Positions 5,535-59,724 of a stretch of DNA of 64,000 nucleotides are shown one piece after another. Both the position numbers and the translations under genes were made by a program. Under the pieces are notes generated by a model. That model saw only the letters and a list, made by a program, of their open reading frames with translations, was not told the DNA's origin and did no database searches. The stretch's first letter is position 1. Every line of letters starts with the position of its first letter. The stretch spans positions 1,922,001 through 1,986,000 of the forward strand of contig JANJGN010000052.1 in NCBI GenBank assembly GCA_026770705.1, read 5' to 3'. The DNA is from Isurus oxyrinchus (lineage: Eukaryota).

Positions 5535-7628
5535 TATTCATTTATGGGATGTGGGTGGCGCTGTCTAGGCCAGAATTATTGCCCATCCCTAATTGCTCTT
5601 GAGAATGTGGTAGTGAGCTGCCGTCTTGAACTGTTGCAGTCCATATGGGGTAGGTACACCCACAGTGCTGTTAGGGAGGGAATTGCAGGATTTGGACCCA
5701 GTGACAGTGCAGGAATGGCCGTATATTTCCAAGTCAGGATGGGGGTGAGTGACTTTGAGGGTAACTTCCAGGTGGTGCTGTTACCATGTATCTGCTGCCC
5801 TGTAATTCGAGATGGTAGTGGTTGTGTGTTTGAAGGTGCTGCCTAAGGAGTCTTGGTGAGTTCCTGCAGTGCACCTTGTAGATGGTACACACTGCTGCTA
5901 CTGTGTGTCGGTTGTGCAGAGAGTGGATCTAGCGGGGCTGCTTTGTCCTGAGTGGTGTTGAGTTTACTGAATCTTGTTGGAGCTGCACTCATCCAGGCAA
6001 GTGGAGAGTCTTCCATCACACTCCTGACCTGTGCCTTGAAGGTGGTGGACAGGCTTTGGGGAGTCTGGAGTGAGTTACTCACTGCATGATTCCCAGCCTC
6101 TGACCTGCTCTTGTAGCCACAGTGTTTATATGGCTAGTCCAGTTCAGTTTCAGGTCAATGGTAATCCCCAGGATGTTGATAGTGGGGGATTCAGCAATGG
6201 TAATGCCATTGAACATCAAAGGGCGATGGTTAGATTCTCTCTTATCGGAGATGGTCATTGCCTGACACTTGTCAGCGCAAGCCTGAATATGGTTCAGGTC
6301 TTGCTGCATTTGGACAAGGACTGCTTCAGTATCTGAGGAGTCGTGAATGGTGCTGAACATTGTGCAATCATCAGTGAACATCCACACTTCTGTCCTTATG
6401 ATGGAAGGAAGGTCATTGATGAAGCAGCTGAAGATGGTTGGGCCGAGGACACTACGCTGAGTAACTCCTGCAGTGATGTCCTGGAACTGAGATGATTGAC
6501 CTCCAACAACCACAACTATCTTCCTTTGTGCTGGGTATGGCTCCAACCAGTGGAGAGTTTTCCCTCTGTTATGATGTGGTAGATGATGTGTGCCAGGGGG
6601 ACCAAATCCACAAGGGAAACTTGGTCACACTCTCACAACGGTTTTGCAATTTGTATTTATTATGAGATGTGTGCACTGAATTCAGGAGTAATGTGTCAAC
6701 CAAGACATTTAGAGATCTTAAAAATTAAATTTCAATATTTATTAACAAAATACAAGATTTCAAGCACACACATAAGGATACGGTTACTACTATAACAAAT
6801 CCTAAACTTCCTAATTAACCTTAAAGATGGTGGACAGGCATTGGGGAGCCCAGAGATGAGTAGTACAACCCCATTTAAGGCAACAGTCCAAAATAGATTT
6901 TAGATTTAAAAACAGAACCAGCAAGTTAACACAGTACACACTTGAGAGTGGAATTCCAAATGGCTTTCTCAATCTATAGTCACTGAACATAACAGACCTA
7001 TGGACAAATGCCTGGAGGCTTCTTCAAGGCTGATTCACACACTCTTGTTAGATTTTACATGGTCCCCAAAATAGCCTTTCATTCTCCTTTGTTTATGTTC
7101 CTCTCTCTTAGATATGTAAATTTCATTGTTCCATATGTCTTTGGAATTATACATTTCCTATAATATAAAATCTTTCATGTTGCCAATGTTGTCAATAACC
7201 TTTGGGGAAAAATAAACACACTCCTTTGCCTTGCATATCGGCCTCATTGTAAACAGACCAACAGCCCTTTGAAATCCAAACAATCCCGTCACTTATCTAA
7301 AAATGCAAATTCCCCTCACACCTTACATGCTAAGTCAGCCTCCGTGTTCACTCACTAGCATTTCAAGTACATTTCTACATCTAGCTTCTTTTGATAATCT
7401 CAAACTTGCAGTCTACCTGACTCCAGGTGTAATTAAGCCACACAGACAGACCCATCTACACTCACACCCATAAACCTAGTTTACAACAAACCAGGAAAAT
7501 ATTAAGCAAATTATTATACTTTCATACCACCCCTGATTCCCATTGATTCCAGTTTTGCTCGGGCTCCTAGATGCCACACTCGGTCAAATGCAGCCTTGAT
7601 GTCAAAGGCAGTCACTCTCACCTCACCT
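5535..7628 (-). mobile_element. Degenerate LINE reverse transcriptase fragment, split by a solo LTR
   Basis: ORF 6079-6546 contains GVTQRSVLGPTIFSCFINDL..MFTDD (RT motifs); LINE sequence resumes at about 7530. Confidence 0.85.
6567..7529. mobile_element. Solo LTR inserted in the LINE
   Basis: TGTTATGA...TCATACCA termini interrupting otherwise contiguous LINE sequence. Confidence 0.65.
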
Positions 7629-7820
7629 TGTATTAACAGATGTAACATTATACATAATTTATAAGCTTCTCACAATCTTTTACAGCATGGAAAAAGGTGC
7701 AGCATTCAGAAAGCTCACTCAGAAACAATAAAAAAAAGTTGAGCAACATCATATTTGTGTTCATTACTATTTGGCCATGTTGGCTGCACACACCCCACAG
7801 CCCCGCTCCCTGTTTCACAC

Positions 7821-8069
7821 TCAGTTTTTCTTGAACCTGATCTGTGCGTATTCCGTGTCCTCGCTCCTGTGCACAGTCCTGTCACCGCTGGGCAGCTTTG
7901 AAAAGTTGATGTTGGCGTAGAGAAGCTCGTCGGGTTTGTCTGAGTTCCCATGTCCAACATCGCCTCCCACTGGACCTTCAGAGAGACCCCAGGAAGCTGG
8001 GGTCTCCCCCTCGCTAGTTGTGTCTCTGGTTGTGTTCCGGGGCTCAGTAATCAGCACGTTCTGTTCATC
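7821..8069 (-). CDS. Gene A distal terminal exon with ITIM (LLYANI) and ITSM-like motif (TEYAQI)
   Basis: Acceptor tttctctgtag, phase 0; DEQNVLITEPR...DELLYANINF...DTEYAQIRFKKN*. Confidence 0.8.
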   Translation of the reverse strand, partial: DEQNVLITEPRNTTRDTTSEGETPASWGLSEGPVGGDVGHGNSDKPDELLYANINFSKLPSGDRTVHRSEDTEYAQIRFKKN

Positions 8070-10600
8070 CTACAGAGAAATGGAAACAGAAGACATCCTC
8101 ACATCAATTACTGGTACTGATAGGGTTAAATTATTGTGCAGACTTGTTTAATTCTCTCTCTCCTATCGGATAAAAGGCACCACCTATGGCAGTGCAGCAC
8201 CCCCTCAGTACTGACCCTCTGTCAGTGCAGCACTCCCTCAGTACTGACCCTCCAACAGTGCAGCACTCCCTCAGTGCTGACCCTCCGACAATACAGTGCT
8301 CCCTCAGTACTGACCCTCTGTCAGTGCAGCACTCCCTCAGTACTGACCCTCCGACAGTGCAGCACTCCTTCAGTACTGACCCACTGTCAGTCCCGCACTC
8401 CCTCGGTAATGGCTCTGGTGAGTGACGGCTTGGATTCTGCACTCAGGTGCCTGGTGTGAGGCTCAATAACATGAACCTTGTAATCAGAGAGAGGATGAGA
8501 GAGAGAGATAGAGGAGGGATAGAGACAGAGTGTTATTAATCTAATAATGTTTGTATTATAAATGCAAACTGTCTTTTTAAACAGAGGTTTAGTCTGTGTG
8601 TGTGCCTGTGTGTATTTTAATTGGATTAAAGCCAGCCAGTCTGTGTGCTTTGATGTATAGTAGTTTTGAGATGTAAACAAAGAGGTAAAGTGGTAATTTG
8701 CATTTTTAAATAAAACTTTCAAAGTCTGAGAGTGAAATCTTAAACCAATCAACGTTTATATTACTAATAAAATTGATACGATGAAAGGGGATTTATTATT
8801 GGAAGAGATGGAGTTCAAAGGTCCTGATGATACATTGCGAATTTACCTTCAAACAGAAGCCATAAGACCATAAGACATAGGATGAGAAATTAGACCATTC
8901 GGTCCATCGAGTCTGCTCCACCATTCATACATGGCTGATATGTTTCACAAACCCAATTCTCCAACCTTCTCTCCTAACCTTTGATCCCCTGACCAATCAA
9001 GAGCCCATCAATCTCCATCTTCTTCACACTCAAGAGCTGGGTATAACTTGAGCAGTTTTGTGTGTGCAGAGCAGAGGCTTGTAACAGCAAAGCAGCTGTA
9101 ATCCTACACCTGTCTGCAAAGGAACCAAAGTGAAAGGAACCTCATTTGGAATTTGTGAGGTGAAAATGCTTTGCCTGGTGTCTGCTTAAAGTCTATGGGT
9201 TGTCTTAGAGGAGATTAGTTTGAGAATTTGTTATAAAGTTATGATAATACTAGTTTGTAGCCATGTGCATATGTTTAACTTGTGAAAATTAATAAATGTC
9301 TCATTTAGATTGATATAAAATCATCTTGAGAACTGGTGGTCTTATTCCTGAATTTAGAGCTGCATCTCAAACATTTCACTGGGAAATATAGGTTACGACA
9401 ACTGTTTAAAGTTTCCCTCTGGGATTTTAAACAACAGCCTTTACCAGTTGCTGTGTATTAACAGAGAGACAGCATGATACTGAACCATTGCTGACTCCAC
9501 AGGTACAAATCAGTGGGTAACTGGGCTGGGAATCTGGGACATGTGTTGTCTACACACTGAGATAGAAGCTTTGGAGTGAGTGTAAACAGCTCCTGTACCT
9601 GGTGTTTCACAGAGAGTGGACTGGGGGTCAATGCAATGTCACTGGTCCCTGAAACTCTCTCCTCCGTCACTGTCTTTCTCCTGCAATAATAAAATATCAC
9701 ACTGTGGTTATCATATAGCAGAGAGTCAGGGCAGCACAGACACAGAGCCCACTGTAACCTTACACCAATGACTGGACTCTCTCTTTAAATCACCTCTGCA
9801 CAAAGCACAGAATCAAGACGCTCGACACCATCCAGGACAAAGCAGCCCGACTGATCCACACCCCATCCACCACATTAAACATTCACTCCCTCCACCATGA
9901 ACACACAGTGGCAGCAGTGTGTGTACCATCTACAAGATGCACTGCAGCAACTCAGCAAGGCTCCTTCAACAGCACCTTCCAAATACGCGACCTCTACCAT
10001 CTAGAAGGACAAGGACAGCAGACACATGGGAACACCACCACCTGGAAGTTCCCCTCCAAGTCACTCACCATCCTGACTTGGAAATATATCACCGTTCCTT
10101 CACTGTCGCTGGGTCAAAATCCTGGAATTCCCTCTCTAACAGCACTGTGGGTGTACCTACACCACATGCACTGCAGCGGGTCAAGAAGGCAGCTCACCAC
10201 CACCTTCTCAAGGGCAGTTAGAGATTGGCATCAATGCGGACATCACCAGTGACAGCCACATTCGATGAAAGAATTAAAAATCTCACAGCTCAATGTATTT
10301 ATTGTGAGCCTGCTGCACACACGCCCTGTCAAAGGAACCTCTGTGGTTCCATTGTTAATCGAAGCAGATCAGAGTTACTGCAACAACTTGCATTTATGCA
10401 GCACCTTCAATGTAGCAAAATGTCCCAAGGCTCATCCGGGGCTTGTTAGTGACATCTTCACCTGACTCTGAGGCACATGAGGAGATATTAGGGACAGGAG
10501 ACCAACAGCTGAGTCAACAAAGTCAGTCATTAACGGTCATCTTAAAGGAGGAGCTGGAGATAGAGAATGAGAGACTGACACAGAAAGAAAGAGAGAGACA

Positions 10601-10639
<39 letters not shown>

Positions 10640-13600
10640 TGAATCTCACTCCCCAATGGCTCAGCATCCAGTCCTCTCTGGAGAAGCATTTCATTCCAAA
10701 CCACACCAACCGCAGCCCAATTCCATCCCTTCCTCCCTCTCTCCCCCTGTCCCCCAGTGGGTTGTTTCCTGTTCCCAGGAATCTCAATCCCTACCCGCAC
10801 ACCCACATCTCCTCACTCCCACTCCCCATTTCTCATTCAGTTATGCTCAAACCTGATCTGTGCGTATTCCGTCTCCTCTTCCCTGTGGACAGACCCATCA
10901 CCACTGGACACCCTCAAAACTTGGGGATTGGCGTAGAGAAACTCTTCAGGTTTGCCGGGGTTCCCAAGTCCAGCATCGCCTCCCACTGGACCTTCAGAGA
11001 GACCCCGGGGAGCTGGGGTCTCCCCCTCACTAGTTGTGTCTCTGGTTGTGTTCCGGGGCTCAGTAATCAGCACGTTCTGTTTACCCTACAGAGAAATGGA
11101 AACAGAAGGCATCCTCACATCATTTACTGGCACTGATAGGGTTAAATTATTGTGCAGCTTCGTTAATGTCAGTCGTGTCTCAGTGGGTTTAACTCTCTCT
11201 CCCATGTCTTATGAAAGAAACCACCTATGGCATTGCAGTGCTCCCTCAGGACTGACCCTCCAACAGTGCAACACATCCTCAATAGTGACCCTCTGTCAGT
11301 CTCGCACTCCCTCAGTACTGACCCTCTGTCAGTCTCGCACTCCCTCAGTACTGACCCTCCGACAGCGCAGCAAAAACCTCAGTACTGACCCTCTGACAGT
11401 GCAGCGCTCCCTCAGTACTGACCCTCCGATGGTGCAGCGCTCCCTCAGTACTGACCCTCCGATAGTGCAGCGCTTCCTCAGTACTGACCCTCCGACAGTG
11501 CCGCGCTTCCTCAGTACTGACCCTCCGACAGTACAGCGCTTCCTCAGTACTGACCCTCCGACGGTGCAGCACTCCCTCAGTACTGACCCTCCGACTGTGC
11601 AGCACTCCCTCAGTACTGACCCGCTGTCAGTCTCGCACTCCCTCGGTAATGGCTCTGGTGAGTGACGGCTTGGATTCTTCACTCAAGTGTCTGGTGTGAA
11701 GCTCATTAACATGAACCTTGTAATCAGAGAGAGGATGAGAGAGAGAGAAAGAGAGAGAGAAAGAAAGGGAGGTTGAGATAGAGAGAGAGACTGGAATTTG
11801 TGAGGTGAAAATGCCTGGAATCTGCTTAAAGACTATGGGTTGTCTTAGAGGAGATTAGTTTGAGAATTTGTTAAAAAGTTATGATAATACTAGTTTGTAA
11901 CCACGTGCATATGTTTAACTTGTGTAAATTAATAAATGTCTCATGTAGTTTGATATAAAACCATCTCGAGAACTTGTGGTATTATTCCTGAATTAAGAGA
12001 TGCATCTCAAACATTCCACTGGGAAATATAGGTTATGACAGTTGTTTAAAGTTTCCTTCTGGAATTTTAAACAACAGCCTTTACCAGTTGCTGTGTCATA
12101 ACAGAGAGACAGCATGATACTGAACCATTGCTGACTCCACAGGTAAAAATCAGTGGGTAACTGGGCTGGGAATCTGGGACACGTGTTGTCTACACACTGA
12201 GATTGAAGCTTTGGAGTGAGTGTAAACAGCTCCTGTACCTGGTGTTTCACAGAGAGTGGACTGGGGGTCAATGCAATGTCTCTGGTCCCTGAAACTCTCT
12301 CCTCCATCGCTGTCTTTCTCCTGCAATAACACAATATCACACTGTGGTTATCATATAGCAGAGAGTCAGTGCAGCACAGACACAGAGCACACTGTAACCT
12401 TACACCAACGAATGGGACTGTCTCTTTAAATCACTTCTGCACAAAGCACAGAATCAAGAAGCTTGACACCATCCAGGACAAAGCAGCCCGATTGATCGAC
12501 ACCCCATCCCCCACATTAAACATTCACTCCCTCCACCATGAACACACAGTGGCAGCAGTGTGTGTACCATCTACAAGATGCACTGCAGCAACTCAGCAAG
12601 GCTCCTTCAACAGCACCTTCCAAACCCACGACCTCTACCATCTAGAAGGACAAGGGCAGCAGACACATGGGAACACCACCACCTGGAAGTTCCCCTCCAA
12701 GTCACTCACCATCCTGACTTGGAAATATATCACCGTTCCTTCACTGTCGCTGGGTCAAAATCCTGGAACTCCCTCTCTAACAGCACTGTGGGTGTACCTA
12801 CACCACATGGACTGCAGCGGGTCAAGAAGGAAGCTCACCACCTCATTCTCAAGGGGCAATTAGAGATGGGCAATTAGTATTGTCCACGCCAGTGACAGCC
12901 ACATTTGATGAAAGAATTTAAAATCTCACAGCTCAGGAGGAAGCCACTCAGCCCATCGTGCCTGTGCTGGCCCTTTGTAAAAACTGTCCAATTAGTCCTA
13001 AGCAAATGTTTATATTAAAATCAAGTTAAATCTTCAGACTTACTTTCTCACACAGATGAAGATGAAGATTCCAGCCAGGAAAACACTCAACATGATCCCA
13101 GCCGTGAACAATCCTACTGTCCATTTACTGGAATCTCTACCTGTAAAAACAGTCATTAATTACTGCACTACAGGTTTACAATGATGCTCCGATGTATCTC
13201 GAGAAGCGATACACTCACTCAGTGTTTAAATACTCATTCTCGGGCAATGCTGACATTTATTGTCCATCCCTAGTTTCCCCTTGAGAAGGTGGTGGGGGGT
13301 CTTCCTCCTGAACCACTGGTTTGTCCCAAACTGAGAGACCAGTTCAGAGGGCACGTAAGAGTTAACCATGTTGGTGTTTGAGACTGGAGTCACATATACA
13401 CCCAGACCTGTTAAAATGGACAGGTTTCCCTCACTAAATGTGTAATTATATCTTTAATTTCTATATTTATGTATCAATTAACATCACTAAAATAATCATT
13501 TATCACCTCAATTTCACACTGTTGTTTGTGGGATCTTGCTCTGCACAAATCAGCTGTTGCGTTTCTCAACGTAATCTATGTAACATTTATATATAATATT

Positions 13601-16600
13601 TATCGATGTAATCTATGTAACATTTACATATAATTTTTCTCAATGTAATCTATGTAACATTTATATATAATGTTTCTCGATGTAATCTATGTAATATTTA
13701 TATATAATATTTAGTCGTTTGGGAGGAGAACCTGAGTATTGCTGAGAAAGGACATTTTGTCAAAGCTTTCTGTCTTGCACCCAATGAAGCAGCTTATCTG
13801 GGGGAGAGGGTTCCAGATTTCCACTCCCCTTAGTCTGAAGAAGTGCTTCCTGACATCACCCCCTGAACGGTCTGGCTCCAATTTGACCAAGTGTTGCCAT
13901 TGTCACATGAGGTCAGGTGATTCAAAGCTTGGTCAAAGGGGTAAGTTGTACACAGCATCTTAGAGGAGGTAGAGAGAGAGGTGGAGAGGTTGAGGGAGGG
14001 AATTCTCGAGTTTAGGGATCAATCCAGCTGAGTGGAGATCGATCCTAAGCGAGTCTCTCACCTTTGACCCACAGATACATCTTGAACATGGCTTCCCCGT
14101 GTGGGTTTTGAACCGAGCAGGATGCAATCACTCCCCCCTCATCCTGGGGTCTCATCAGGGTGAGGGAACCAGTCACCAGATGCCCATCTCTGACCTGCCA
14201 CGACACAAAACCTCCGTGTGTTTGGTTACCACTGATGTTGGCACTGGGCAGGTGCCAGGTGAGGTCTCCGGGTGGGTTGGAGTTGGCCACACAGATGCAG
14301 GTGACCCCCTCTGACCTCCGAGTGCACTCTGACTGCTGGGAAATCTCCGGCTTATCTGAGGAGGGAAGGACAACAATGAGACAACTTCATAGCAAAGTTA
14401 GAGCGTAAGATAGAATCTTCACACTGAAACACTCATTCCTGCCTTTGTTACCTCCGTACTCGACTATCCCAACACTCTCCTGCCCGACCTCTCATCTTCC
14501 ACTCTCCGGAAACATCAGCTCATCCCAAACTCTGCTGTCCCCATGTCCTAACTCACACCGAGTCCCGTTCAGACATCACTCCCTGTTGGTCACTGAGCTA
14601 CACTGGCTCCCGGTCCGACAATGCCACAATTTTAAAATTATCATCGTTTCAAATCCCTCCTTACTCCCTCCCTATCTCTGTAACCTCCTCAAGCCCCTAC
14701 AACCCTCCCTATCTCTGTAACCTCCTCCAGACCCTACAACCCTCCCTATCTCTGTAACCTCCTCCAGACCCCACAACCCTCCCTATCTCTGTTACCTCCT
14801 GCAGCATCTACAACCCTCCCTATCTCTGTTACCTCCTCCAGCCCCTATAACCCTCCCTATCTCTGTTACCTCCTCCAGCCATCACAACCCTCCCTATCTC
14901 TGTAACCTCCTCCAGACCCCACAACCCTCCCTATCTCTGTAACCTCCTCCAGCATCTACATCCCTCCGAGGTCTCTGCGTTCCTCCAATTCCGGCCTCTT
15001 GACCATCCCCCGATTCCTATCGCTCCACCATTGGCAGCCGTGCCTTCAGCTGCCTGGGCCCCGAGCTCTGGAATTCCCACCGTAAACCTCTCCATTTCTA
15101 TCTCTCTCCTCATTTCAGACACTCCTTAAAATCCGGCCTCTTTCTCTGAGCTTTCAGTCCCTGTTCTAATATCTCCTTATGTATCTCGGAGAGGCGCAGG
15201 GTGAAAAAAGCAGGGAGGTGATGCTAGTTATGCTAAACCACAGCAAGGAAGCTGCCCTCAGACAGAAAGTGTTTGAGTTTTAAGCAGAGACAGGGGGAGT
15301 AAAATGCTTACATTGTACGTTCAGGTGGGTGATGTTGGAGGTGCTGTTACCCACTGGGTTCCTCGCTGTGCAGTAGAAACCTGCATCATTCTCCCGTGTT
15401 ACAGGAGTGAAGGAGAGAGTGCGGCTACTTGTGTTTAACTGGGTGCTGGTGTTCCCCTCGATCCTGAACCAGGTGTAATGAGATATCGGTGGGACACTTT
15501 CACTGGAGCAGGTTAATGTGATATTGCTTCCCTCCCTTATCCCACCTGAGGATCTGCTGATGGACACCATCGTCTCCTGTGGGGGATCTGGAACAAAGAC
15601 AGAGAACAATCAGCAGGTAATCCCCACACCCCACAGCTCTCCGAAATCTCTGTGCTCCTCCAATTCCGACCCCTTGCACATTCTCCCATTCCCATCTCTC
15701 CACCATTGGCGGCCGTGCCTTCAGCTGCCTGGACCCTAACCTCTGGAATTCCCTCCATCATTTCTCACCTCCTTCGGACAAAATCTGACCCCGAGTCACA
15801 TTAGGAGATATTAGGAGAGGTGAGCAAAAGCTCGCTGAAAGCAGGAGGTTTTAATGGTGTGTCTTAATGGTTTTAAGGAGCATCTTAATGGTTGAGAAAG
15901 AGTTGGAGATTGTGTATCTCCCGCGCATCCCCCCTTGCAAATTCCTCTCCCTCCCAGAGCAATGTAAGGGTCCCTCCTGTCTTCACTTTTCACCCCACCA
16001 GCCTCCTCATTCAAAGGATCATTCTCCGCCATTTCCGCCAACTTCAGCATGATGCCACCACCAAACACATCTTCCCTTCACCACATCCGCCCCCCCCCCC
16101 ACCCCCCCCCACGTTGGCATTCCATAGGGATCATTCCCTCCAGGACACCCTGGTCCACTCCTCCATCACCCCTAGCATCTCAACCCTCTCCGATGACATC
16201 TTCCCATGCATTTGCAGAAGGTGCAACACCTGCCCCTTTACTTCCTCCCCCCTCACTGTCCAATGACCCAAACACTCCTTCCAGGTGAAGCAGCGCTTCA
16301 TGCAGACTTCCTTCAATATAATCTACTGCCTTCACTGCTCCCAATGTGGTCTCCTCTACATGGGACAGACCAAACACAGACTGGGTGATCGCTCTGATGA
16401 ACACCTTCGGTCTGTCCACAAGCATGACCCAGACCTCCCTGTCGCTTGCCATTTTAACCCTCCACCCTGCTCTCATGCCCAAATGTCCGTCCTTGGTCTG
16501 CTGCATTGTTCCAGTGAAGCCCAACACAAACTGGAGGAACAGCACCTCATCTTCCGACCTGGCACTTTACAGCCTTCCGGTCTGAATATTGAGTTCAACA

Positions 16601-19600
16601 ATTTCAGATCATGAACTCTCTCCTCGATCTTCACTGCTTTTTGAACCCTTTTTTTATGTATTCATTTTAATTGTTTTATTTGTTGACTGTTTTCCACTTA
16701 TTTTTATTATTATTATTTGAAATTCATTTCCATTTTTATTGATTGTTTTATCCACAGATTTTAGTCTATTTTCGATCTTTATTCCCTCCACCGTCCCCTC
16801 CCCCTGCCACACCCCCACGAGGGCCATCTGTCTCTTTCCAGAGTGCTTACCCTGGTCCGCCCATTATCACACTCTGCTTAATGTCACCATTAGCACCTCC
16901 TTTATCCAATACCACCACTGTTAACAACCCTTTGACCTTTTGTTTATGACATCTTCCACAATCTCTCCATTGCCTCCACCTATCGCTGGTTTTCTATCCA
17001 GCTCCACCTGTCCCATCGCCCCCCCCTTAGACAGGATATATTTCACCACATGTCTACTTCCCTTTAGCTCTGAAGAGGAGTCTTACGGACTCCAAACGCT
17101 AACCCTGTCTTTCTCTCCACAGATGCTGCCAGATGCTCAGAATCAGCTGGATGGACAGAAAGACCAATGAGTGACTTAGATCAAGAGGAGACGTTCAGCA
17201 ATTAAAAGGGTTGTTCAGGACAGTTAGAGAGAGAAAGGTCATCAAGTACGGAGATTGGAAACGAAGACCTGACAGCCTTGTCCTCACAACCATTGAAGGA
17301 GAAACTGAGAGCAAAAACAGAAAGGGAGAGGAAAAATTGGGTGTGTGGATAACGTGGACTGAGCGAGGATTGAAGAAAACTGGATTAAAAACAACACGAT
17401 CCCAATGGCTCCACGGAGACCACGGAGACAACAAACAAACAAATGTATCTCCACACTCACATTCCACAGTGATGGTTATGAACCCCTCCACTGCTCCATG
17501 TTCATTCCCTGCCACACACTGATAGTCTCCAGTGTCCCTGGATGTAACGTGAGGAATCACCAACCACAGCTCATTGTTGGAACTTGTTCTGTTCATTGGG
17601 ACATTAAGATGTCGCCACGTCAGGTTAGAAGCTGGGAAGCTCTCGACAGAGCAGATTATCACTGCAGAATTCCCCTCAATTATGTTGATCGATGAAGCGT
17701 TAATCATACCAAGAGAAGTAATTGATAGGTTCCGTGGTGCATCTAAATACAAATAAAGGTTTCATTGTGAGCAAACACAGTGCACAGCAAGACTCCAGGT
17801 ATCATCTCTCTCCATCTGGTGTCTATGTGCATGTCAAGGCTTCTTTCTCCATTATAATTTTCTCTGTCACCATTTGTAACATTCACTGCCAGTGTGTTCC
17901 TTTTTGCATATTCATGGGAAGTGGATGTATCTATCTAGACCAGCATTTATTACCCATTCCTTATTGCCCTTGAGGAGGTGGTGGTGAGTTTTTCACCTCC
18001 AGAGGATTCCCAGCCTCTGACCGGCTCCTGTAGCCACAGTATTTATGGCCGGTCCAGTTAGTTGTTTGGTTAACATCCCCCAGGATGTGGATTGTGGGGG
18101 ATTCAGCGATGGGAAAGTGATTGAATATCAAGGAGAGATGGTTAGATTCTCTCTTGTTGGAGATGATCACTGCCTGGTGCTTGTGTGGTGTGAACATTAC
18201 TTGTCATTTCTCAGCCCAAGCTGAGTGTTGCTCAGCTCTTGCTGCATGTGGATATGTAAACTGTCACGCTGTAATTACAGCCTTCCACCAGAGGAGACAC
18301 TGTTGGGCTAGAAGAAAAGAAAGTGTCTTTCACATGATCAGGATGTTCACGGAGATTTCACCATGGAGGAATTGCTTTGGAATAATGGGGTATTGGGTGA
18401 TAAACCTACAATTCACTGTTCAGGAGGTTGCTCCATCCAATTCAGTGTCTTGATGATCTGGAGTTTACCTTCCTTCAACACAGAATCAGAGCTGCTACCG
18501 AGACTCGAGTGCAGCACTGAGACANNNNNNNNNNNNNNNNNNNNNNNNNNNNNNNNNNNNNNNNNNNNNNNNNNNNNNNNNNNNNNNNNNNNNNNNNNNN
18601 NNNNNNNNNNNNNNNNNNNNNNNNNNNNNNNNNNNNNNNNNNNNNNNNNNNNNNNNNNNNNNTAACTCACGTTCCACAGTGATGGTTATGAACCCCTCCA
18701 CTGCTCCATGTTCATTCTCTGCCACACACAGATAGTCTCCAGTGTCCCTGAATGTAACGTGAGGAATCACCAACCACAGCTCATTGTTGGAACTTGTTCT
18801 GTTCATTGGGACATTAAGATGTTGCCACGTCAGGTTAGAAGCTGGGAAGCTCTCGACAGAGCAGATTATCACTGCAGAATTCCCCTCAATTATATTGATC
18901 GATGAAGCGTTAATCATATCAAGAGAAGTAAATGAGAGATTCTGTGGAGCATCTAAGAACAAATCAAGTGTTTAATGTGAGCAAGCACTGTGCACAGCAA
19001 GACTCCATGCATCATGTCTCTGTATCTGATGCCTGTGTGCATTTCTAGGCACCTTCCCTCAAGATATTTTCCTATGTCACATTTACAATGGGCACTGCCT
19101 ATGTAAACTGTCACACTGCAGGAGCATTCTCCCACCAGAGACCCTGCCCATCCAGATTTAAAGAAACAGCCTTTCACATCCTCAGGATGTCCCCAAGGGC
19201 TTGACAGGCAATGAATTGTATTTGATCGATGGAGCACTGAGGGGTAAATCTACAATTCTCTGTTAAGGATTTTGCTCATCCAATTCAGGGTCTTGTTGAT
19301 CTGGAGTTTACCTTCCTTCAGCACAGAATCGGAGCTGACACCGAGACTCCAGTGCAGCACTGANNNNNNNNNNNNNNNNNNNNNNNNNNNNNNNNNNNNN
19401 NNNNNNNNNNNNNNNNNNNNNNNNNNNNNNNNNNNNNNNNNNNNNNNNNNNNNNNNNNNNNNNNNNNNNNNNNNNNNNNNNNNNNNNNNNNNNNNNNNNN
19501 NNNNNNNNNNNNNNNNNNNNNNNNNNNNNNNNNNNNNNNNNNNNNNNNNNNNNNNNNNNNNNNNNNNNNNNNNNNNNNNNNNNNNNNNNNNNNNNNNNNN

Positions 19601-22600
19601 NNNNNNNNNNNNNNNNNNNNNNNNNNNNNNNNNNNNNTGTGTGTTGTCTGTGTGCGCGTGTGCATGTGNNNNNNNNNNNNNNNNNNNNNNNNNNNNNNNN
19701 NNNNNNNNNNNNNNNNNNNNNNNNNNNNNNNNNNNNNNNNNNNNNNNNNNNNNNNNNNNNNNNNNNNNNNNNNNNNNNNNNNNNNNNNNNNNNNNNNNNN
19801 NNNNNNNNNNNNNNNNNNNNNNNNNNNNNNNNNNNNNNNNNNNNNNCATGTGTGTGTGTGTCTGTTGGTCCGTGTGTGGTCTGTGTAACCTGTAAACCTA
19901 ACCCTTCCACACTGATGGTCACGAACACCCCCCACTGCCAACAAATTTATCTCAGTAAGGAACATGGCACTGCCAACCTCGTCAATACCATCTTCTAAAC
20001 AGGGGATTGGGTAGGAGTCTGGTTTTATTGCTGCATTAACCTTTCTGTAATCTATGCAGAATCTGGTTGGAAATGAAATACCTGCTCCTTTTTACCTCCC
20101 TCCCTACGATGGTATCATTTTAACATATTGATGTGTCACAGCCGATTCTTTATTCTACAATCTGGGGTGTCTATCAAATAATTTACTTGACCAACCCTCC
20201 TAATTACCTTGTGGGGACCACTGAACTGCGCTTTCAGAGGCTCCCCCTGCCAAGGCAATGATACTAACACGTCATCCCCCTGGTTGTGATGTTCGGGTCA
20301 CAGCTTGCCTGTCTGCCCCATTCCTTCATCTCTGTTTGAGAAACTATAAGATGTTCTTGTGCCACTTTGGAGGCTCCCATGAGCCGTTCCTGAAACATGG
20401 ACACATCATCTGAAATAGAGGATTCATCCCTCTGTCCGGAATATCTTTCTTTGATGTATTTCAGACAGCCTCTTATCTCGTGTCCATAAGTTATTCCAAA
20501 AAGACTAAAACCTGCCGATTCAGTTGGTGAATCTCGTGTGGGAAATGCAAGAAAATCCAGTCCTTTGTCCCAGTCATGGGGAGTTCATGACAATAGCTTC
20601 AATCATTGTTTTGAGGGTTTGTTGGTCCCTCTCTAAAGATCCCTGTGTCTATGGATGATATGCTGCGGACTTTAACTGTTTTATACCCAAATTACTCATT
20701 ATGTTCGGAAAATTTTAAGACATAGAGATGGAACCTTGATCTGACTGGATCTCCAGCGGTAATCCATAATGGGTAAAAAATTGGGTTAACTTCCCTATTA
20801 CTACTTTAGCTGTAATTGTTCCTAAAGGGATGGCCTCTGGAAATCGAGTTGTCATATCCATCATAGTTAGGCCATACTGGAGTCCGGCTTTCATTTTCGA
20901 TAATGGTCTAACACAGTCCACTAATGCTCGTATCCAATGGTAACGGACAATTAACTCACTGGAGGAGGGGAATCCACAAATATCCCCATCCTCAATGAAG
21001 AGGGAGCCCAGCACATCAGGGCAAAAGATAAGGCTGAAGCATTTGCTACAACAATTATCCATTTCTGTCTGGCGTAAAAATAAGTCAGGAAATGGTGCTC
21101 AACCAGGGCTTACAAAAGAAATTAGGGATAGTATTAGATCCAGAGAGGAGACATAAAATTGCCAGGGGAAGCAGCAATGCTGAGGATTGGGAGCAGTTTA
21201 GAATTCAGCAAAAGTGGACAAAAAGATTGATCAAGAAGGGGAAAATGGAACATGGGAGTAAACTTGCAGGGAACGTAAAAACCGACTGTAAAAGCTTCTA
21301 TAAATATGTGAAGAGAGAAAGATTAGCAGTGACCGATGTAGGTTCCTTGCAGTCAGAAATGGGGGAAATTCTAATGAGAAACAAAGAAATGGCAGAAGAA
21401 CTGAACATATATTTTGGTTCTGTCTTCACAAAAGAGGACACAAATAATTTCCCAGGAATGTTAGGGAACCAAGTGTCTAGTGAGAGGGAGGAATTGAAGA
21501 TAATCAGGATTAGTTTTAAAAAATGGAGCTGGAGAAATTAATGGGTTAAAGGTTGAACAGTCCCCAGGGCCTGAAAATCTACATCCCAGAGACTAACGGA
21601 AGTGACCCTGGAAATATTGGAAGCACTGGTGGTCATCCTCCAAAATTCTATAGGCTCTGGAGCAGTTCCTATAGATTGGAGAGTGGCAATTGTAACCCCA
21701 CTATTTAAAATAGAAGGGAGAGAAAAAAACTGGGAATTACAGATCAGTTAGTCTAACATGGGGAAAACGCTAGAGCCTATTATATAAGGTGTGCTAACGG
21801 AACGCTTGGAAAGCATTAATGGGATTAGACAAAGTCAGCATGGGTTAATGAAAGGAAAATCATGCTTAACTAATCTACTGGAGATTTTGAGGATGTAACT
21901 TGTGGAATAGATAAGGGATAACCAGTGGATGTGGTGTTTTTAGATTTCAAGAAGGCTTTTGATAAGGTCCCACATAAGAGGCTAGTGGGCAACATTAAAG
22001 CCCATGGGATTGGGGGTAATTTATTGGCATGGATTGAGAATTGGTCGACAGACAGGAAACAGAGGGTCAGAATAAATTAGTCTTTATCTGAGTGGCAGGC
22101 GGTGACTAGTGGTGTACCACAGGGATCCGTGCTTGGGACCTAACTATTCATGATATATATAAATGACTTGGGTGAGGGAGCCAAGTGCAATATTTCCAGG
22201 TTTTCTGATGACACAACGCTGGGTAAGGGTGTGAGCTGTGAGGAGGATGCAAAGAGGCTTCAAGGCGATTTAGACATGTTGTGTGTGTGGGCAAACACAT
22301 GGCAGATGATGTGGATGAATGTGACATTGTAGGCTTTGGTGTGAAATACAGAAAGGCAGAGTATTATTTAAATGGTGATATAATGGGAAATGTGGATGTA
22401 CAAAGGGATCTGGGTGTCCTTGTGCACTAGCCAATGAAAGTAAACAGGCAGGTGCAGCAAGTAATTCGGAAGGCAAATGGTATGTTGGCCTTCATTGCAA
22501 GAGGATTTGTGTTCAGGAGTAGGGATGTCTCACTGCAGTTATACAAGGTCTTGGTGAGACTGCGCATGGGGTAAAACGTGCCGTTTTGGTCTCCCTCCCT

Positions 22601-25600
22601 AAAAAAGGATAGACTTGCCGTCGAGAGAGTGCAGAGAAGGTTCTCTAGGCTGATACCAGGGGCGGCAGGACTGTCGTATGAGGAGAATTGGTACGACTGG
22701 GTCTGTATTCACTAGAGTTTAGAAGAATGAGAGGAGACCTGAATAAACGTAAGAAATTCTAACAGAGATAGACAGACTGGATGGAGGGAGGATGCATCCC
22801 CTGGTTGGGGAGACTAAAACCAAGGGCGACAATCTCAGGATACAGGGCAGGCCATTTTGGACTGAGATAGGGAAACATTTCTTCACTCAGAGGGTGGTCA
22901 ATCTGTGGAATTCTCCATCACAGAGGCTGTGGAGGCCGGGTCACTGAGTGTATTCAAGAAAGAAACTGATAAATATTTTGATATTAGGGGCATCAAAGGG
23001 TACGGAGAGAAAGCGGGAATAAGGCTTTGAGATAGAGGGTCAGCCTTGATCATATTGAATGGCGGAGAAGGCTTGAAGGGCTGAATGTCCTAATCGTGCT
23101 CCTAGTTTCTATGTACCTAGGTATCTATAGAACTATCTCTCTCCGTGTTCTATTCTCATGTGACCTTGAGTAACTAATGATAAATACTTTCTATTTTCAT
23201 TGCTAATATTAAACTTTTATACTACATCTCCCCCAAAATCTTTGACATCAATGAAGACAATATTTATATTATCCTATATTGTCTTTTAAGTTCAACCTTG
23301 GCCCCCTCTGCCCTATCAGGTAGGCATAAACAATCCCAAGGTTCAATACAGGAAGAGCTCTCCCTGGTCAATATCACTAATAAAATAGGACCTCTTTTGT
23401 CTTCAAGTGATGTTTGTGGGATCTTGCTCTGCACATTGTATCCTATTACAGCTAATATAGAATCAAGGGTGTCAGTACTTACCTTGTACAGTTAGTACAA
23501 GGGTCTGCTCCGATGAAACAGATGGATATCTCACTCTGCAGCTGAGAGTGTGTCCGTGGTGTTTGAGTGATGGGATCAGGGTCAGAACAGAAGTATAGGT
23601 CAGAGTGACACCATGCTGAGTTACAGTGTTTGAGACTGATCCAGGTACGTCAGTGGGAGTGTCCCAGGTAAAGACAGGTGCTGCTGTTCCATTGCACGTT
23701 GTGTTGAAGTTGCAGCTTACATCCACACGCTTTCCTGCAATAATTTCAGCAGGGAATATCATGGGTTTATCTGTGAAATCTAACACACAGAGAATGGATC
23801 CTTTTAGAGAAATATAACATGAAGCATCAGTTCAAATAGAAAGCACAGTCCCACACGAGAAAGCACTTTTACAAGGATGATATCAGATCAGAGAGATTAC
23901 AACGATCAGGAGAGAATTTCCTATTTTCAGACTTAGTGGAGTTTCTGTCTCTCAGATGAATTCACTTCCACTTCGAGACAATTGAATTGACAATCCCGGG
24001 TGAGGGTGGGGGAGCAGCTCACAGTTCCTGACACACTGGCTTGTTACTTTCTCCGAAATCTGCCAGATTTAAATTCTATCCTGTTCCCAGCAGGAGAGAA
24101 TCCATTTGAACCAATCACTGAACCGGCATCTAAAACAGATGATCAGGTTATTGATCACATTGCTGTTTGTGGGAGCTTCCTGTGAACAAATTGGCTGCTG
24201 TGTTTCCCATATTACAACAAGGGTTACATTTCAAGAATTATTTCAGTGGTTGTGAATCCATGTGCAACGTACAGAGGTGGTGAAAGGCGCTATAGAAATA
24301 CAAATCTTTCTTTTGTTCATATGTAAGAATTTTAAACAGGATTAGGGAGATTGATGTAAGTGGATAACGTGATAACATTGATGGACACAGTCAATACATT
24401 TAATCACTGATATTAAAGTGAGTATTAGAGGTTGTTTTAGGACTGAACTGGAAGCTATCACCAGGTTATTGAGAATCAGACAGTGTGTTATAATAAACTG
24501 TGTTTGTGTTAATATGTAAATGTCACAGTTTGTGTTATTTCCCATTGAGTGTTGGCTGTGAATTGTTGAGTAATTATAACACAGCACTTACCAGAAACGT
24601 GAAGCTGGGTTACAGGGTAATAGTTATGGCTCGGACCATTGTCAAATTCTATTCTGAAAAAATAAGGTCCTGCATCTTCCCGTCTGATGTTGTTTATAAA
24701 CAGGGAACAGTCGCCATCTTTCAGGTCTCCAGACAGCCGGGTCCGATGGTGGAACCGTGGTAACTCGTGACTGTGATCCTTGGAGTGAAAGACAATGGGA
24801 GCCCAGGGAATATGTTTCTCATTATGAAACCAGACTCCACCTCGCGGTTGGTTTTCCAGACACGATGGATAACTGTAATGACATGGAATCTGTACACAGG
24901 AACCTTCCTGCGCTGTCACCTCTCGTGGAGTGTCACCTTTCCACTCTTGTGAGGGTTCAGCTGGGGAGAGAAATATCAATATTTAACTCTGAATGGTTTG
25001 TGGATCCAATAGACTTAAAATTTACAGATGAGGCTGAATTGGGGGGATGGTCAATACTGAGGAGAATGGCAACAAATTATTTTGGCAAGATGAATAGAAA
25101 AACAGGATATTATTTAAATGGAGACAGGCTGCAGAATGCAGTACAGAGGGATCTGGGTGTCCTGGTACATGAATCACAGAAAGTCAGCATTCAGGAACAC
25201 CACGGAATGAGGAAGGCACGTGGAATGTTGGCCTTTATTGCAAAGGGATGGAGTATAAAAGGAGGGAAGTCTTGCAACAGCTGCACAGGGTGAGATTGTA
25301 TCAGGAGCAGTGTGTACAGTTCTGGTCTCCTTACTTAGGGAGGGATAGACTTGCATTGAAGGCAGTTCAGAGGAGGTTCACTGGGCTGATTCCCGGGATT
25401 AAAGGGTTTGTCCTGTGAGGAAATGTTGAGCAGGTTGGGCCTGTATCCATTGGAGTTTAGAAGAATGAGGGGTGACCTTATTGAAACATATCCGATTCCG
25501 AGGGGGCTTGACAGGGTGAATGCTGGGAGGATGTTTCCCCCTCGTGGGGGAATCTAGAACCAGGGAGCACAGTTTCGGAATGAGTGCTCTCCCATTTAAG

Positions 25601-28600
25601 ACTGAGATGAGGAGGAATTTCCTCTCTCAGAGTGGCGCTAGCCTGTGGAATTCTCTTCCCCAGAGAGCAGTGGAGGCTGGGCCATTGAATAGACTCAAGG
25701 CTGAGTGAGGCAGGTTTTTGATCGACAAGGGAGTCAAGGATTTGGGGGACAGGCAGGAAAATGGAGTTAAGGCCACAACCAGATCAGTGAGAGCAGGCTC
25801 GAGGGGCCGAATGGCCTGATCCTGTTCCTATTTCTTATGTTCCTACATTCTTACCTTCTTAAAATATTAAAGCTGCAGAATAAACATGCAAGTGACTGAC
25901 CCGCTCGACCCACCTTCCATCAGGGGCTGGAGGAGGTTACACAGATAGGGAGGTTTGTGGGTGCTGGAGGAGGTAACAGAGATAGGGAGGGCTGTAGATA
26001 CTGGAGGACATTACGCAGATAGGGAGGGTGGTAGGACCTGGAGGAGGTTGCAGAGATAGGGAGGGCTGTAGGGATTTGAGGAGTTTATGGCGATGGGGAG
26101 CGTGTAGGGACTGGAGGAGGCTGCAAGGGCAGAGAGGGTTTTAGGGGCAGTAGGAGTTTACAGGAATAGGAAAAGTTGTAGGGGCTGGACGGATTGCAGA
26201 GGTAGGGAGGGTTGGAAAGGCTGGTGGAGGTTTCAGAGGTAGGGAAGGTTGCAGGGACTGGAGGAGTTTACAGAGATGGGGGAGTTTTTGGGGCAGGATG
26301 GGGTTACAGAGATAGGGAGGGTTGTAAGGGCAGGACGAGGTTACATAGATATGGAGTGTGGCTGGGGCTGAGGGAGGCTACAGAGATAGGGAGGGTTATA
26401 ATGGCTGGAGGAGGTTACAGAGATAAAGGAAACTCTTAGGGACTGGAGGAGGTTACAGAGATAGGGAGGGTTGTAGTGGGCTGGAGGAGGTTACAGAAAT
26501 ATGAAGGGTTGTAAGAGATGGACCAGCTTACAGAGATAGGGAGAGGTATTCGGTCTGGAGGAGGTTGCAGAGATAGGGGAGGTTGTTAGGACTGGAGGAG
26601 GCTACAAATATCGCGAGGGTTATCGGGGCTTGAGGAGGTTAAAGAGATAGGGAGGGGTGTTGGGTCCGGAGGAGTTTGCAGTGATAGGAATGGTTTTCGG
26701 GATTGGAAGAGAGTACTGAGATAGGAGGGTTGTAGGGACTGGAGGAGTCTCCTGAGAAAGGGAGGGTTGTAGGGACTGGAGGAGGCTCCTGAGATAGGGA
26801 GGGTTGTAGGGACTGGAGGAGGCTCCTGAGATAGAGAGGGTTGTAGGGACTGGAGGAGGCTCCTGCGATAGGGAATGTTGCCGTGGATGAAGATAAAGGA
26901 GGAGATTACTGTAATAGGGAGGAAAAATATTCAATAATTTGGACATTGAGACTTTGCTTGACCAGGAGCCAGTCTCGGTCATCGAGCAGAGCGGGTGATA
27001 AGGGAACGGGACTTGGTGTGAGTAAGGACGTGGTCAGCAGTTTTGGATGGCCTCAAGTTTATGGAGTGTAGAGCATGTGTTGGAACAGTCGAGTCTGGAG
27101 GTAATGAAGGCGTGGATGAGGGTTTCAGCAGCAGATGAGCTGAGACAGGGTGAAGTCGTACGACGTTATGGAGGTGGAAATAGACGGTGTTAGTGAGGGC
27201 GCAGATATGAGGCCGGAAGCTCATCTCAGGATCAAATGGGACAACAAAGCTGTGAACAGATTGGCTTCAATCTCAGAGAGCTGCCAGGGAGAGGAATGGA
27301 GTTGGTAGCGAGGGAACAGAGTTTGGAGCGGGGAATGAAGACAATGGCTTCAGTCTTTCCAATATTTAATTGGAGGGAATTTCTGCCCATCCAGTACTGG
27401 ATGTCGGATAAGCAGCCTGATAATTTAGCAGCAGTGGAGGAGTCGAGAGAGGTGGTGGTGAGGTAGAGCTGGGGATCCTCAGTGGACAGGTGAAAACTAA
27501 TACTGTTCAGATGATGCTGCAAAGCCATTGCAAGTGATTCTCTGGCTACGATGAGATGGATAAGAATGGAGCCAGGGGAGAGCAGTTCCACCCAGCTGGA
27601 CGACAGTGGAGAGGGGTTGGAGGAGGATGGTGTGGTCGAGCGTGTCAAAGGCTGCAGACAGATCGAGAAGGACGAGGAGGGAAAGTTGACCTTTGTCACA
27701 GTCACACAGGATGCCATTTGTGACCTTGATAAGAGCTGTTTCAGCACAGTGGCTGGGGTGGGAACCTGATTGGAGGGATTCAAACATGGAGTTCCGGGAA
27801 AGATGGAACCGGATTCGGGAGATGGAAACACTTTCAAGGACTTTGGAGGGGAAAGAGAGGCTGGAGATGGGACGGGGGTTTACACGGACAGTGTGAGGGG
27901 TGGAAGGTGTAGTGGGGAGGAGACACTTCACTCAGGGGGGAGGTGTCATCACCCCTCAGCTCGGTTTACGTTACAGCTATGATGTGGATTCAATCACACA
28001 CAATAAGCTCATGGATCTGGGAGCAGAAATAGACAAATCATTAAAAATAGTGACGCTGGTTAACACAGCCAAAAAACAAGCAAATCAAACACTATTATTT
28101 CCCATTGAGTGTTGGATGTGAATTGGTGAGTAATTATAACACAGCACTTACCAGAAACCTGAAGCTGGGTTACAGGGTAATAGTTATGGCTCGGACCATT
28201 GCCAAATTTTATCGTGAAAAAATAAGGTCCTGCATCTTCCCGTCTGATGTTGTTTATAATCAGGGAACAGTCGCCATCTTTCAGGTCTCCAGACAGCCGG
28301 GTCCGATGGTGGAACTGTGATAACTCGCGACTGTGATCCTTGGAGTGAAAGGCTATAGACCATTTAGACCATTTGTTCTGTATGTATCTTCTCATTTTCC
28401 AGATTCCGACCTGTGGTTTCTTTACCAAATCTGATGGATAACTGTAATGACATGGAATCTGTACACACGAACCTTCCTGCGCTGTCACCTCTCGTGGAGT
28501 GTCACCTTTCCACTCTTGTGACAATCCAACTGGGGAGAGAAATATCAATATTTAACTCTGGATGTTTTGTTGATCCACTAGACTCGATATCCACCCCCTC

Positions 28601-34445: not shown

Positions 34446-34664
34446 ATCAGTGAGAAGATCGAGGATGTTTTGTGCTCTCAGCAAAACGTTTACCATGTGT
34501 GATCTGTCAGCTCATATTTGGGCAGCTGTAGTCATGAAGCTTCTCCATTGGCTCCGTGGGATTAGACTCCTCCCCCTTACCACAGAGGCTGAAACTCAGG
34601 CGATAGAGTCCCCAATACAGGTCTCGGGCCGTATGATACATTTCAACGACCCCTGTTATCATTA

Positions 34665-37258: not shown

Positions 37259-37639
37259 CTAGAGAACACACAGAAAGAAATCATCACTGACTCTCCGCTT
37301 TCAATCTCTCACTCTGGCTGAACAATCAAGCTTCATATCACTGCAACATTTGCTGTAATATTGACCCATCCACTGGGATTCAATGTGGAATGAATGTTTT
37401 CATTGTAAACACTCTAAGAGTGGACAATCGGAACTTTCCCCTCAGCGTGGAACATTGGTGAGAATGGATCATTGTGCTGTTGGACTCCCTGTCCAATGTT
37501 ACTCTCCATCGCTGTGTACAGGATTGTGCTGTAGAAAATTCTGGAAACGTTTAGTGCAGGGTGGAAATCCATCTCGGACGCGTGTGCGAATCGAGCAGAA
37601 TCGAGATGGACTCCCCCACGGACTTACACCCCCCGCTTA

Positions 37640-57192: not shown

Positions 57193-57429
57193 TCACTTTG
57201 TGAGGATGCAGCTCATGTTTAGAGTTTTTTGAAGCTGTTAACCCTTTGCGTTCTGGACTTGTGATGATATTTCTGCTCAAAAGTGGAAAGTCATTGACCA
57301 GGAATTTCTCCTGTGGGTCATTGGGTTTCAAACCCTCTCTCGCTCTCTGAGTGAGAAGGTCGTCTGTTCGAGATTCATTTGGCAAAATTCAGACTGCCAA
57401 ACCAGACCGGCACTCGGTGTCAGGACTGA

Positions 57430-59718: not shown

Positions 59719-59724
59719 GAATTA

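What the first reader, a model, noticed from the sequence alone, without database searches (positions are those of the whole stretch)
7821..12935. One TM exon followed by two complete cytoplasmic modules: a possible signalling switch
Seen: about 7820-10292 and about 10830-12935 are tandem duplicates. Each has an 82-nt phase 2-0 exon and a 249-nt terminal exon, open and with intact splice sites. The proximal copy has its own AATAAA at 10298-10303. Inference: alternative last-exon use would give an ITSM-only or an ITIM+ITSM isoform of one receptor. The alternative is that the distal module is a relic of a deleted neighbouring gene.
Basis: partly seen in the sequence, partly recalled or inferred. 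Interest (0 to 1): 0.75.

Follow-up and report, generated by a model that had tools for sequence, protein, structure and literature searches.

The report
Shark Siglec with chainable signalling tail
A shark immune-receptor gene of the Siglec type carries two different copies of its signalling-tail exons, which are likely spliced end to end or skipped singly, so one gene would make receptors with different mixes of inhibitory and adaptor docking sites.

Summary
The duplication is real. On the minus strand an intact Siglec-like gene of a lamniform shark has one TM exon, then two modules (82-nt exon plus 249-nt exon). Using it gives an open 986-aa protein with a four-tyrosine tail: YANP, ITSM, ITIM, ITSM. 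NCBI models show this end-to-end join at 8 Carcharodon and 3 Cetorhinus loci (up to three modules chained), and in 0 of 27 proteins from nine other shark species. One Carcharodon gene has six isoforms: three double, one YANP+ITSM only, two ITIM+ITSM; none ends at the proximal stop. So the predicted isoforms exist in a relative, but likely by cassette skipping, not alternative last exons. The two copies are old, distinct tail types, not sisters (AU p=0.007), so the pair likely arose by joining two paralogues' tails before the window's species split from Carcharodon. The key junction was not seen directly in RNA here (15 of 307 joints shown). The proximal AATAAA is no better than chance (P about 0.2). 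New variant of a known kind.

The parts
33811..33850 (-). Leader exon (ATG at 33850, 40 nt, phase 1)
28152..28529 (-). V-set exon 1; Thr where Siglecs have the essential Arg
   Evidence: Pfam V-set and Ig_CD22; alignment to Siglec-5
24592..24960 (-). V-set exon 2; essential Arg present (YFFR)
23483..23779 (-). C2-set exon
18671..18952 (-). Ig exon A, 96% identical to exon B; flanked by N gaps that may hide more copies
17461..17742 (-). Ig exon B
15312..15587 (-). Ig exon C
   Evidence: contigs of runs X2, X5, X6 start at 15312
14062..14355 (-). Membrane-proximal Ig exon D
13044..13140 (-). Single transmembrane exon, no charged residue in the hydrophobic span, phase 1 to 2
   Evidence: no second copy of this TM type in the window
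12239..12320 (-). E1p, proximal 82-nt linker exon, phase 2 to 0
   Evidence: joints in runs X1, X2
10853..11085 (-). E2p as internal exon (233 nt, phase 0 to 2), carrying YANP and the ITSM
   Evidence: same join point in P0001-P0004, P0021-P0028 subset, P0032, P0053-P0065 subset
10847..10855 (-). Internal splice donor CAG|GTTTGA, 6 of 9 consensus matches with G at +5 (distal equivalent 5 of 9, A at +5)
10837..10852 (-). 16-nt read-through to the proximal stop; coding only if the internal donor is ignored
10298..10303 (-). AATAAA 534 nt after the proximal stop; possible intronic poly(A) signal, use not shown
9599..9680 (-). E1d, distal 82-nt linker exon, phase 2 to 0
7821..8069 (-). E2d, last coding exon: ITIM-type LLYANI plus ITSM TEYAQI, then stop
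   Evidence: contigs cross the stop into the distal-type flank in X2, X5, X6
6647..7820 (-). Likely distal 3' UTR with AATAAA at 6743-6738 and 6661-6656
   Evidence: contigs over 6647-7915 in four runs; contigs cannot show an RNA end
10818..12935 (-). Proximal duplicated unit
7802..10292 (-). Distal duplicated unit

Best explanation
This is an intact shark Siglec-like receptor gene with two tail modules after one transmembrane exon, and the modules are likely spliced in series through a donor inside the first 'terminal' exon, giving a predicted four-tyrosine tail that would be shortened by skipping one module. Shown: exon anatomy, the open 986-aa frame, the in-frame internal donor, and the same join in NCBI models of two other lamniform sharks. 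Inferred: (1) the window's gene makes the long form (YANP-ITSM-ITIM-ITSM) and the short forms (ITIM+ITSM by skipping the proximal module; YANP+ITSM by skipping E1d into a shifted frame), all ending in the distal exon; (2) origin: a YxNP-type tail and a YANI-type tail from two older paralogues were brought together by unequal crossing-over, and a G at +5 made usable a GT that is latent in the conserved Arg-Phe codons; (3) signalling: ITIM+ITSM pairs would recruit SHP-1/SHP-2, while YANP lacks the +3 hydrophobic residue and fits Grb2 (pYxN) and Crk (pYxxP) SH2 consensus. Splicing would therefore tune strength and type of signal rather than flip it on or off.
For: Open frame from leader to distal stop through the internal donor, no internal stops. 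10 of 29 Carcharodon proteins retrieved (8 loci) and 9 of 24 Cetorhinus proteins (3 loci) join the ITSM directly to another E1 at this point; 0 of 27 named proteins from nine non-lamniform sharks do. Carcharodon isoforms XP_041037215-221: X1, X2, X6 double; X3 goes from the internal donor to the distal exon out of frame; X4 and X5 single ITIM tails; 0 of 6 end at the proximal stop. Cetorhinus LOC144671591 models chain up to three modules in several combinations. A join from the end of E2 to the start of E1 or E2 cannot come from mis-mapping a single-tail transcript (inference). 54 of 54 scorable terminal modules have K or Q where the window's proximal copy has E, the codon that supplies +5 G (isoforms counted separately). 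Trees: window proximal groups with Carcharodon proximal (95/88), distal with distal (88/84); sisterhood of the two window copies rejected, p-AU 0.007. RNA-type contigs cross the distal stop into its flank in three studies.
Against: The 10853-9680 joint was not among the 15 of 307 joints displayed. The relatives' proteins are predicted models whose read support I could not see; the same cluster yields implausible read-through chimeras (P0055, P0062), so some models are unreliable. X4 and X5 could arise from mis-mapping between near-identical exons. The donor is weak (6 of 9), and its DNA was seen in one chained module only. The laid contigs differ from the window by about 0.4-8%, so they may come from paralogues or another species. 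The eight Carcharodon loci lie on several scaffolds and some may be haplotype duplicates. LLYANI has Ile at +3 and fits the broad ITIM consensus (recalled) but not the [L/V] signature in PMC7226832. No binding data. 77 columns resolve the tree poorly and the modules show signs of conversion.
Confidence: 0.7

Rival explanations
1. Alternative last exons: E2p is mainly read through to its own stop and polyadenylated after 10298, and the distal module is used as a mutually exclusive alternative.
For: The proximal stop is in frame and at the same position as the distal one; AATAAA at 10303-10298 is followed by T- and GT-rich sequence; the internal donor is weak; X1 has contigs at 10442. Single-tail YANP genes exist. 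It can coexist with the best explanation as a minor form.
Against: 0 of 6 Carcharodon isoforms end there, and no retrieved terminal module ends with the window's proximal R-F-E. The AATAAA is at chance level. An X6 contig (depth 3) reads across it, 10205-10374.
Confidence: 0.16
2. The distal module is a silent relic of a deleted neighbouring gene and the protein has only the proximal tail.
For: The cluster is full of debris: a V exon with a stop at 40956-40480 and a half Ig exon at 39079. The distal module is of the type found as the sole tail of other paralogues. pN is about equal to pS between the copies (0.148 and 0.159), which shows no purifying signal. Contigs over E2d could come from single-tail paralogues.
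Against: Both distal exons are open with intact sites; the same proximal-distal pairing is kept in Carcharodon and is joined in its models.
Confidence: 0.1
3. False duplication from assembly of two haplotypes.
For: The assembly has N gaps nearby (18525-19846) and near-identical Ig exons beside them.
Against: The motif half of E2 is only 80% identical between copies; each copy groups with a Carcharodon counterpart; an independent contig bridges the 10292 breakpoint.
Confidence: 0.02

Closest known systems
Expanded shark Siglec-like cluster (NCBI 'MAG-like', 'CD33-like', 'Siglec-10/12/13-like' models of Carcharodon and Cetorhinus, e.g. XP_041037215-221, XP_078389744)
   Same: Same exon set, 85-97% protein identity per Ig or tail exon, same double tail and join point.
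   Different: These are automatic models; I found no paper describing them. The window's gene has two V and two repeated Ig exons; one-to-one orthology is not established.
CD33-related Siglecs and MAG
   Same: V-set with essential Arg, C2-set stalk, TM, then ITIM plus a distal TxYxxI motif.
   Different: A single ITIM/ITSM pair is usual (recalled). PMC7226832 states that fish genomes lack inhibitory CD33-related Siglecs (a teleost study). Best structure hits are Siglec-5, MAG and Siglec-7 at similar scores, so no subfamily is assigned.
SIRP-alpha tail
   Same: Four tyrosines (PMC9990587); motifs ITYADL, TEYASI, LTYADL (PMC5413580), that is, an ITIM/ITSM-like pair repeated.
   Different: Different Ig family; both odd-numbered motifs are ITIMs, here the first is YANP; modular skipping of one repeat is not something I saw reported for it.
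Mouse 2B4 (CD244) long and short forms
   Same: Alternative splicing of the tail gives four or one ITSM; long inhibits, short does not (PMC2211902).
   Different: SLAM family; here the alternatives are duplicated two-exon modules of two diverged types that can be chained.
Composite terminal exon / IgM membrane-secreted switch
   Same: An exon with an internal donor that is either spliced on or read through to an intronic poly(A) site (PMC5928244).
   Different: Use of the proximal poly(A) site is unproven here, and the downstream exons are copies of the upstream ones.
CD22 tail
   Same: Separate SHP-1 ITIMs and a non-ITIM tyrosine that binds Grb2 (PMC6173129).
   Different: Not built from a repeated module as far as I recall; CD22 is a weaker hit for the V domain (E 8.5e-6 against 8.5e-16 for Siglec-5).

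Membership tests
Siglec | N-terminal V-set domain of Siglec type | tested here: met
   Pfam V-set and Ig_CD22; the top 18 structure hits for V2 are all Siglecs
Siglec | Essential Arg on the F strand | tested here: inconclusive
   Present in V2 (YFFR aligned to Siglec-5 and MAG); replaced by Thr in the outer V1
Siglec | Siglec cysteine pattern in the V domain | tested here: met
   Three Cys align with those of Siglec-5 and MAG; their disulfide roles are recalled
Siglec | C2-type Ig stalk, single TM, tyrosine motifs in the tail | tested here: met
Siglec | Binds sialylated glycans | not testable with these tools
   needs glycan array or binding assay
CD33-related Siglec subgroup | Orthology or synteny with the mammalian CD33-related cluster | not tested
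   No ectodomain tree built and no genome held; scores do not separate Siglec-5 from MAG
ITSM receptor | TxYxxV/I motif | tested here: met
   TEYAQI in both modules; consensus from PMC2211902
ITSM receptor | SAP/EAT-2 or SHP-2 binding | not testable with these tools
   no binding data
ITIM receptor | [ILVS]xYxx[LV] or [ILV] | tested here: inconclusive
   Distal LLYANI fits the broad form (recalled), not the [L/V] form in PMC7226832; proximal FLYANP fits neither
Mutually exclusive alternative last exons | Both candidate last exons end transcripts and are not joined | tested here: not met
   Tested on relatives' models only: modules are joined in series and 0 of 6 isoforms end at the proximal stop
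Composite terminal exon (intronic polyadenylation) | Internal 5' splice site in the exon | tested here: met
   10853/10852; used in relatives' models
Composite terminal exon (intronic polyadenylation) | Cleavage at the intronic poly(A) signal | tested here: inconclusive
   AATAAA present at chance level; contigs cannot show ends

The most novel reading that the evidence does not exclude
Lamniform sharks have turned a Siglec tail into a chainable cassette: a GT latent in the conserved Arg-Phe codons after the ITSM becomes a donor with one base change, so tail modules of two signalling types (phosphatase-recruiting YANI and adaptor-recruiting YANP) can be duplicated, strung one to three deep and spliced combinatorially in a cell-type-regulated way, giving a repertoire of intracellular outputs to match a diversified ectodomain cluster.
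Probability: 0.3. Interest if true: 0.72.

Novelty: new variant of a known kind. Interest (0 to 1): 0.52.

Why it matters
It offers a concrete, testable route by which multi-tyrosine inhibitory tails like that of SIRP-alpha can arise: duplicate or capture a terminal module and activate an internal donor. It also points to a large, fast-evolving cluster of ITIM/ITSM Siglec-like genes in sharks, whereas a teleost study states that fish lack inhibitory CD33-related Siglecs (PMC7226832). Short and long tails are known for 2B4, and the double tail is already implicit in NCBI's automatic models, so this is a new arrangement of known parts, not a new kind of system.

Tried and rejected
No whole genome is held for this window, so no paralogue DNA outside it could be read; relatives' donor sequences are known only through proteins. 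Read laying used assembled contigs of 4 of 23 listed runs, with RNA status only guessed. It showed 15 of 307 joints and 24 of 2722 loose ends. The joints 10853-9680, 13044-9680, 12239-8069 and 9599-8069 were not displayed, but neither were constitutive Ig-exon joints, so this says nothing either way. The bin 10491-10797 (proximal flank) had depth 183, 0, 0.2 and 10 against much higher values on both neighbours and on the distal flank; part of it was skipped as repeat and lack of cover in contigs is not evidence, so it is recorded only here. Joints such as 9431-12075 are piecewise fits between the two copies and were disregarded. A selection test between the copies was uninformative (pN 0.148, pS 0.159). 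The idea that YxNP tails are lamniform-only was dropped after Scyliorhinus P0077 showed a frameshifted YVNP tail inside that clade (97/97, long branch). A recent in-place duplication was rejected. The HMMER search of representatives gave 11 hits; only P0053 had two matched stretches. Earlier findings: nothing returned. Ten literature searches returned no description of shark double-tailed Siglecs; the library lacks most subscription journals, and no supplements were opened. No structure or complex prediction was run: the tail has no Pfam domain and phosphopeptide binding cannot be modelled with these tools.
Full report
WHAT IS THERE. The window holds part of a tandem cluster of Siglec-like genes on the minus strand (Pfam V-set, Ig_CD22 and C2-set exons at 55 kb, 41 kb, 28 kb and 25 kb). 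The nearest proteins are from Carcharodon carcharias and Cetorhinus maximus, so the source is very likely a lamniform shark; the window's own protein was not listed in that collection. The gene in question runs leader 33850-33811, V 28529-28152, V 24960-24592, C2 23779-23483, Ig 18952-18671, Ig 17742-17461, Ig 15587-15312, Ig 14355-14062, TM 13140-13044, all with AG/GT ends and phase 1 junctions.

OBSERVATION. After the single TM exon come two modules: E1p 12320-12239 with E2p 11085-10837, and E1d 9680-9599 with E2d 8069-7821. The units are 94-96% identical through the introns, E1 and the first 120 nt of E2, and 80% in the motif-bearing part of E2; similarity ends about 20 nt after the stop. 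The proximal exon encodes FLYANP and TEYAQI, the distal LLYANI and TEYAQI. AATAAA at 10303-10298 exists but has a chance probability of 0.21-0.26 for that stretch.

THE MISSED FEATURE. Sixteen bases before the proximal stop lies CAG|GTTTGA (10853/10852). It is one of three GT sites with 6 of 9 consensus matches in E2p and its flank, equal to the E1 donors, and it is phase 2, the phase of the E1 acceptor. Splicing it to E1d gives a 986-aa frame with no internal stop and a 216-residue tail with tyrosines at 80 (YANP), 103 (ITSM), 185 (ITIM type) and 208 (ITSM). Splicing it to E2d shifts the frame and stops six residues later, inside the last exon, leaving YANP and the ITSM. TM to E1d, or E1p to E2d, gives ITIM plus ITSM.

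EVIDENCE FROM RELATIVES. Of 29 Carcharodon proteins retrieved, 10 (8 loci) carry the two modules joined at exactly this point; of 24 Cetorhinus proteins, 9 (3 loci); of 27 named proteins from nine other shark species, none. One Carcharodon gene has six models (XP_041037215-221): X1, X2 and X6 double; X3 from the internal donor to the distal exon out of frame (ending SVNRTC); X4 with distal E1 and E2; X5 with proximal E1 and distal E2. None ends at the proximal stop. Cetorhinus LOC144671591 models chain up to three modules in varying combinations (15 of 20 cluster members listed). These are predicted models. That a frameshifted form such as X3 reflects read-supported introns is my inference from how the NCBI pipeline works (recalled). 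Against them: the same locus gives read-through chimeras into the next gene, some Carcharodon loci may be haplotype duplicates, and X4/X5 could be mis-mapping. Among 56 terminal modules found, 54 could be scored, and all have K or Q after R-F (A or C at +5), where the window's chained copy has E (G at +5). This fits a one-base activation of a latent donor but rests on a single chained DNA copy.

EVIDENCE FROM RUNS. 23 runs were listed; four RNA-guessed contig sets from three studies were laid. They show the E1p-E2p joint (X1, X2), a loose end at the TM donor that matches the start of E1 (X1, X2), contigs crossing the distal stop into its flank (X2 7758-8003, X5 7753-8065, X6 7598-7915), and one low-depth X6 contig bridging the 10292 breakpoint and the proximal AATAAA. 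The contigs differ from the window by about 0.4-8%, so paralogues contribute. The decisive 10853-9680 joint was not among the 15 of 307 joints displayed; it is neither shown nor excluded.

ORIGIN. In a tree of 44 modules the YxNP/YxSP types form one clade (100/99) containing all 11 proximal modules. In a 28-row tree with more outgroups (a subset of those rows plus five new ones) the window's proximal copy groups with Carcharodon proximal copies (95/88), its distal copy with Carcharodon distal copies (88/84), and forcing the two window copies together is rejected (p-AU 0.007). Both types also occur as sole tails, and a degenerate YVNP tail occurs in Scyliorhinus. So the types are old, and the pair most likely arose by unequal crossing-over between a YANP-type and a YANI-type paralogue before this species and Carcharodon split, with later homogenisation of the 5' parts (inferred). 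In-gene duplication followed by divergence is not excluded; YANP-YANP doubles (P0003, P0004, P0032, P0053) show the process recurred or was converted.

HOW IT LIKELY WORKS. Ligand engagement would lead to tyrosine phosphorylation. The ITIM and ITSM, 23 residues apart, would recruit SHP-1/SHP-2 as in PD-1 (PMC9990587, passages). YANP has Pro at +3, so it is not an ITIM; it fits Grb2 pYxN and Crk pYxx(P/L) (bioRxiv 10.1101/2022.09.01.506260, passages), and YANI also has the +2 Asn. CD22 likewise combines ITIMs with a Grb2 site (PMC6173129, passages). The long form would combine both outputs; the short forms would separate them. All of this is inferred from motifs.

COMPARISON. It works like mouse 2B4 long/short (PMC2211902, passages), yields a tail laid out like SIRP-alpha (PMC9990587, PMC5413580, passages), and has the anatomy of a composite terminal exon (PMC5928244, passages). 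It is a Siglec by sequence, with the essential Arg in V2 but not V1; sialic-acid binding and subfamily are untested. PMC7226832 (passages) says fish lack inhibitory CD33-related Siglecs; PMC8455134, PMC13262535 and PMC13324755 (passages) do not describe this cluster in what I saw. Ten searches found no account of it; subscription papers and supplements were not seen.

VERDICT. Real and probably functional. In-series splicing with cassette skipping 0.70; alternative last exons 0.16; silent relic 0.10; artefact 0.02. New variant of a known kind; interest 0.52.

Noticed in passing
window 56599-44936 (-): A second Siglec-like gene (leader 56599, V, C2, Ig, TM 47200-47104) with a different tail. 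Its exons 45695-45591 and 45053-44936 are themselves old duplicates (shared acceptor context, YENC and YANC motifs), and the last also has SVYGNL. The phase 2-0 linker exon was not identified.
   Followed up: partly
window 41710-37110 (-): Broken paralogue: V exon with a stop, intact C2, half an Ig exon at 39079, and a short TM-type last exon at 37259 matching Carcharodon P0033, which has no tyrosine motifs.
   Followed up: partly
window 28529-28152 (-): The outer V domain lacks the essential Arg while the inner one keeps it, recalling two-V Siglec-12 (recalled).
   Followed up: partly
window 18952-18671 and 17742-17461; N gaps 18525-18662, 19364-19846: Two Ig exons 96% identical beside gaps; relatives carry up to about ten such repeats (P0005, P0017), so the stalk length may be under-assembled or variable.
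   Followed up: no
window 59896, 57138, 46294, 42212, 34388 (-): A short exon-like element repeated five times, mostly upstream of leader exons; Cetorhinus models splice tails into it and on into the next gene (P0055, P0062), suggesting read-through across the cluster or model error.
   Followed up: no
P0042, P0054-P0068 (Cetorhinus): Models with many V-set domains in series and alternative ectodomains sharing one tail (P0007, P0008), hinting at combinatorial ectodomain splicing too.
   Followed up: no
window 8183-8411, 11236-11651, 34660-35680, 48870-49536, 52587-53305, 57414-59719: A dispersed 33-bp tandem repeat family, including both E1-E2 introns, which could promote unequal exchange.
   Followed up: no
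window 6079-6624, 27497-27931, 50440-50823, 20715-21098: Reverse-transcriptase and integrase fragments of old retroelements.
   Followed up: no
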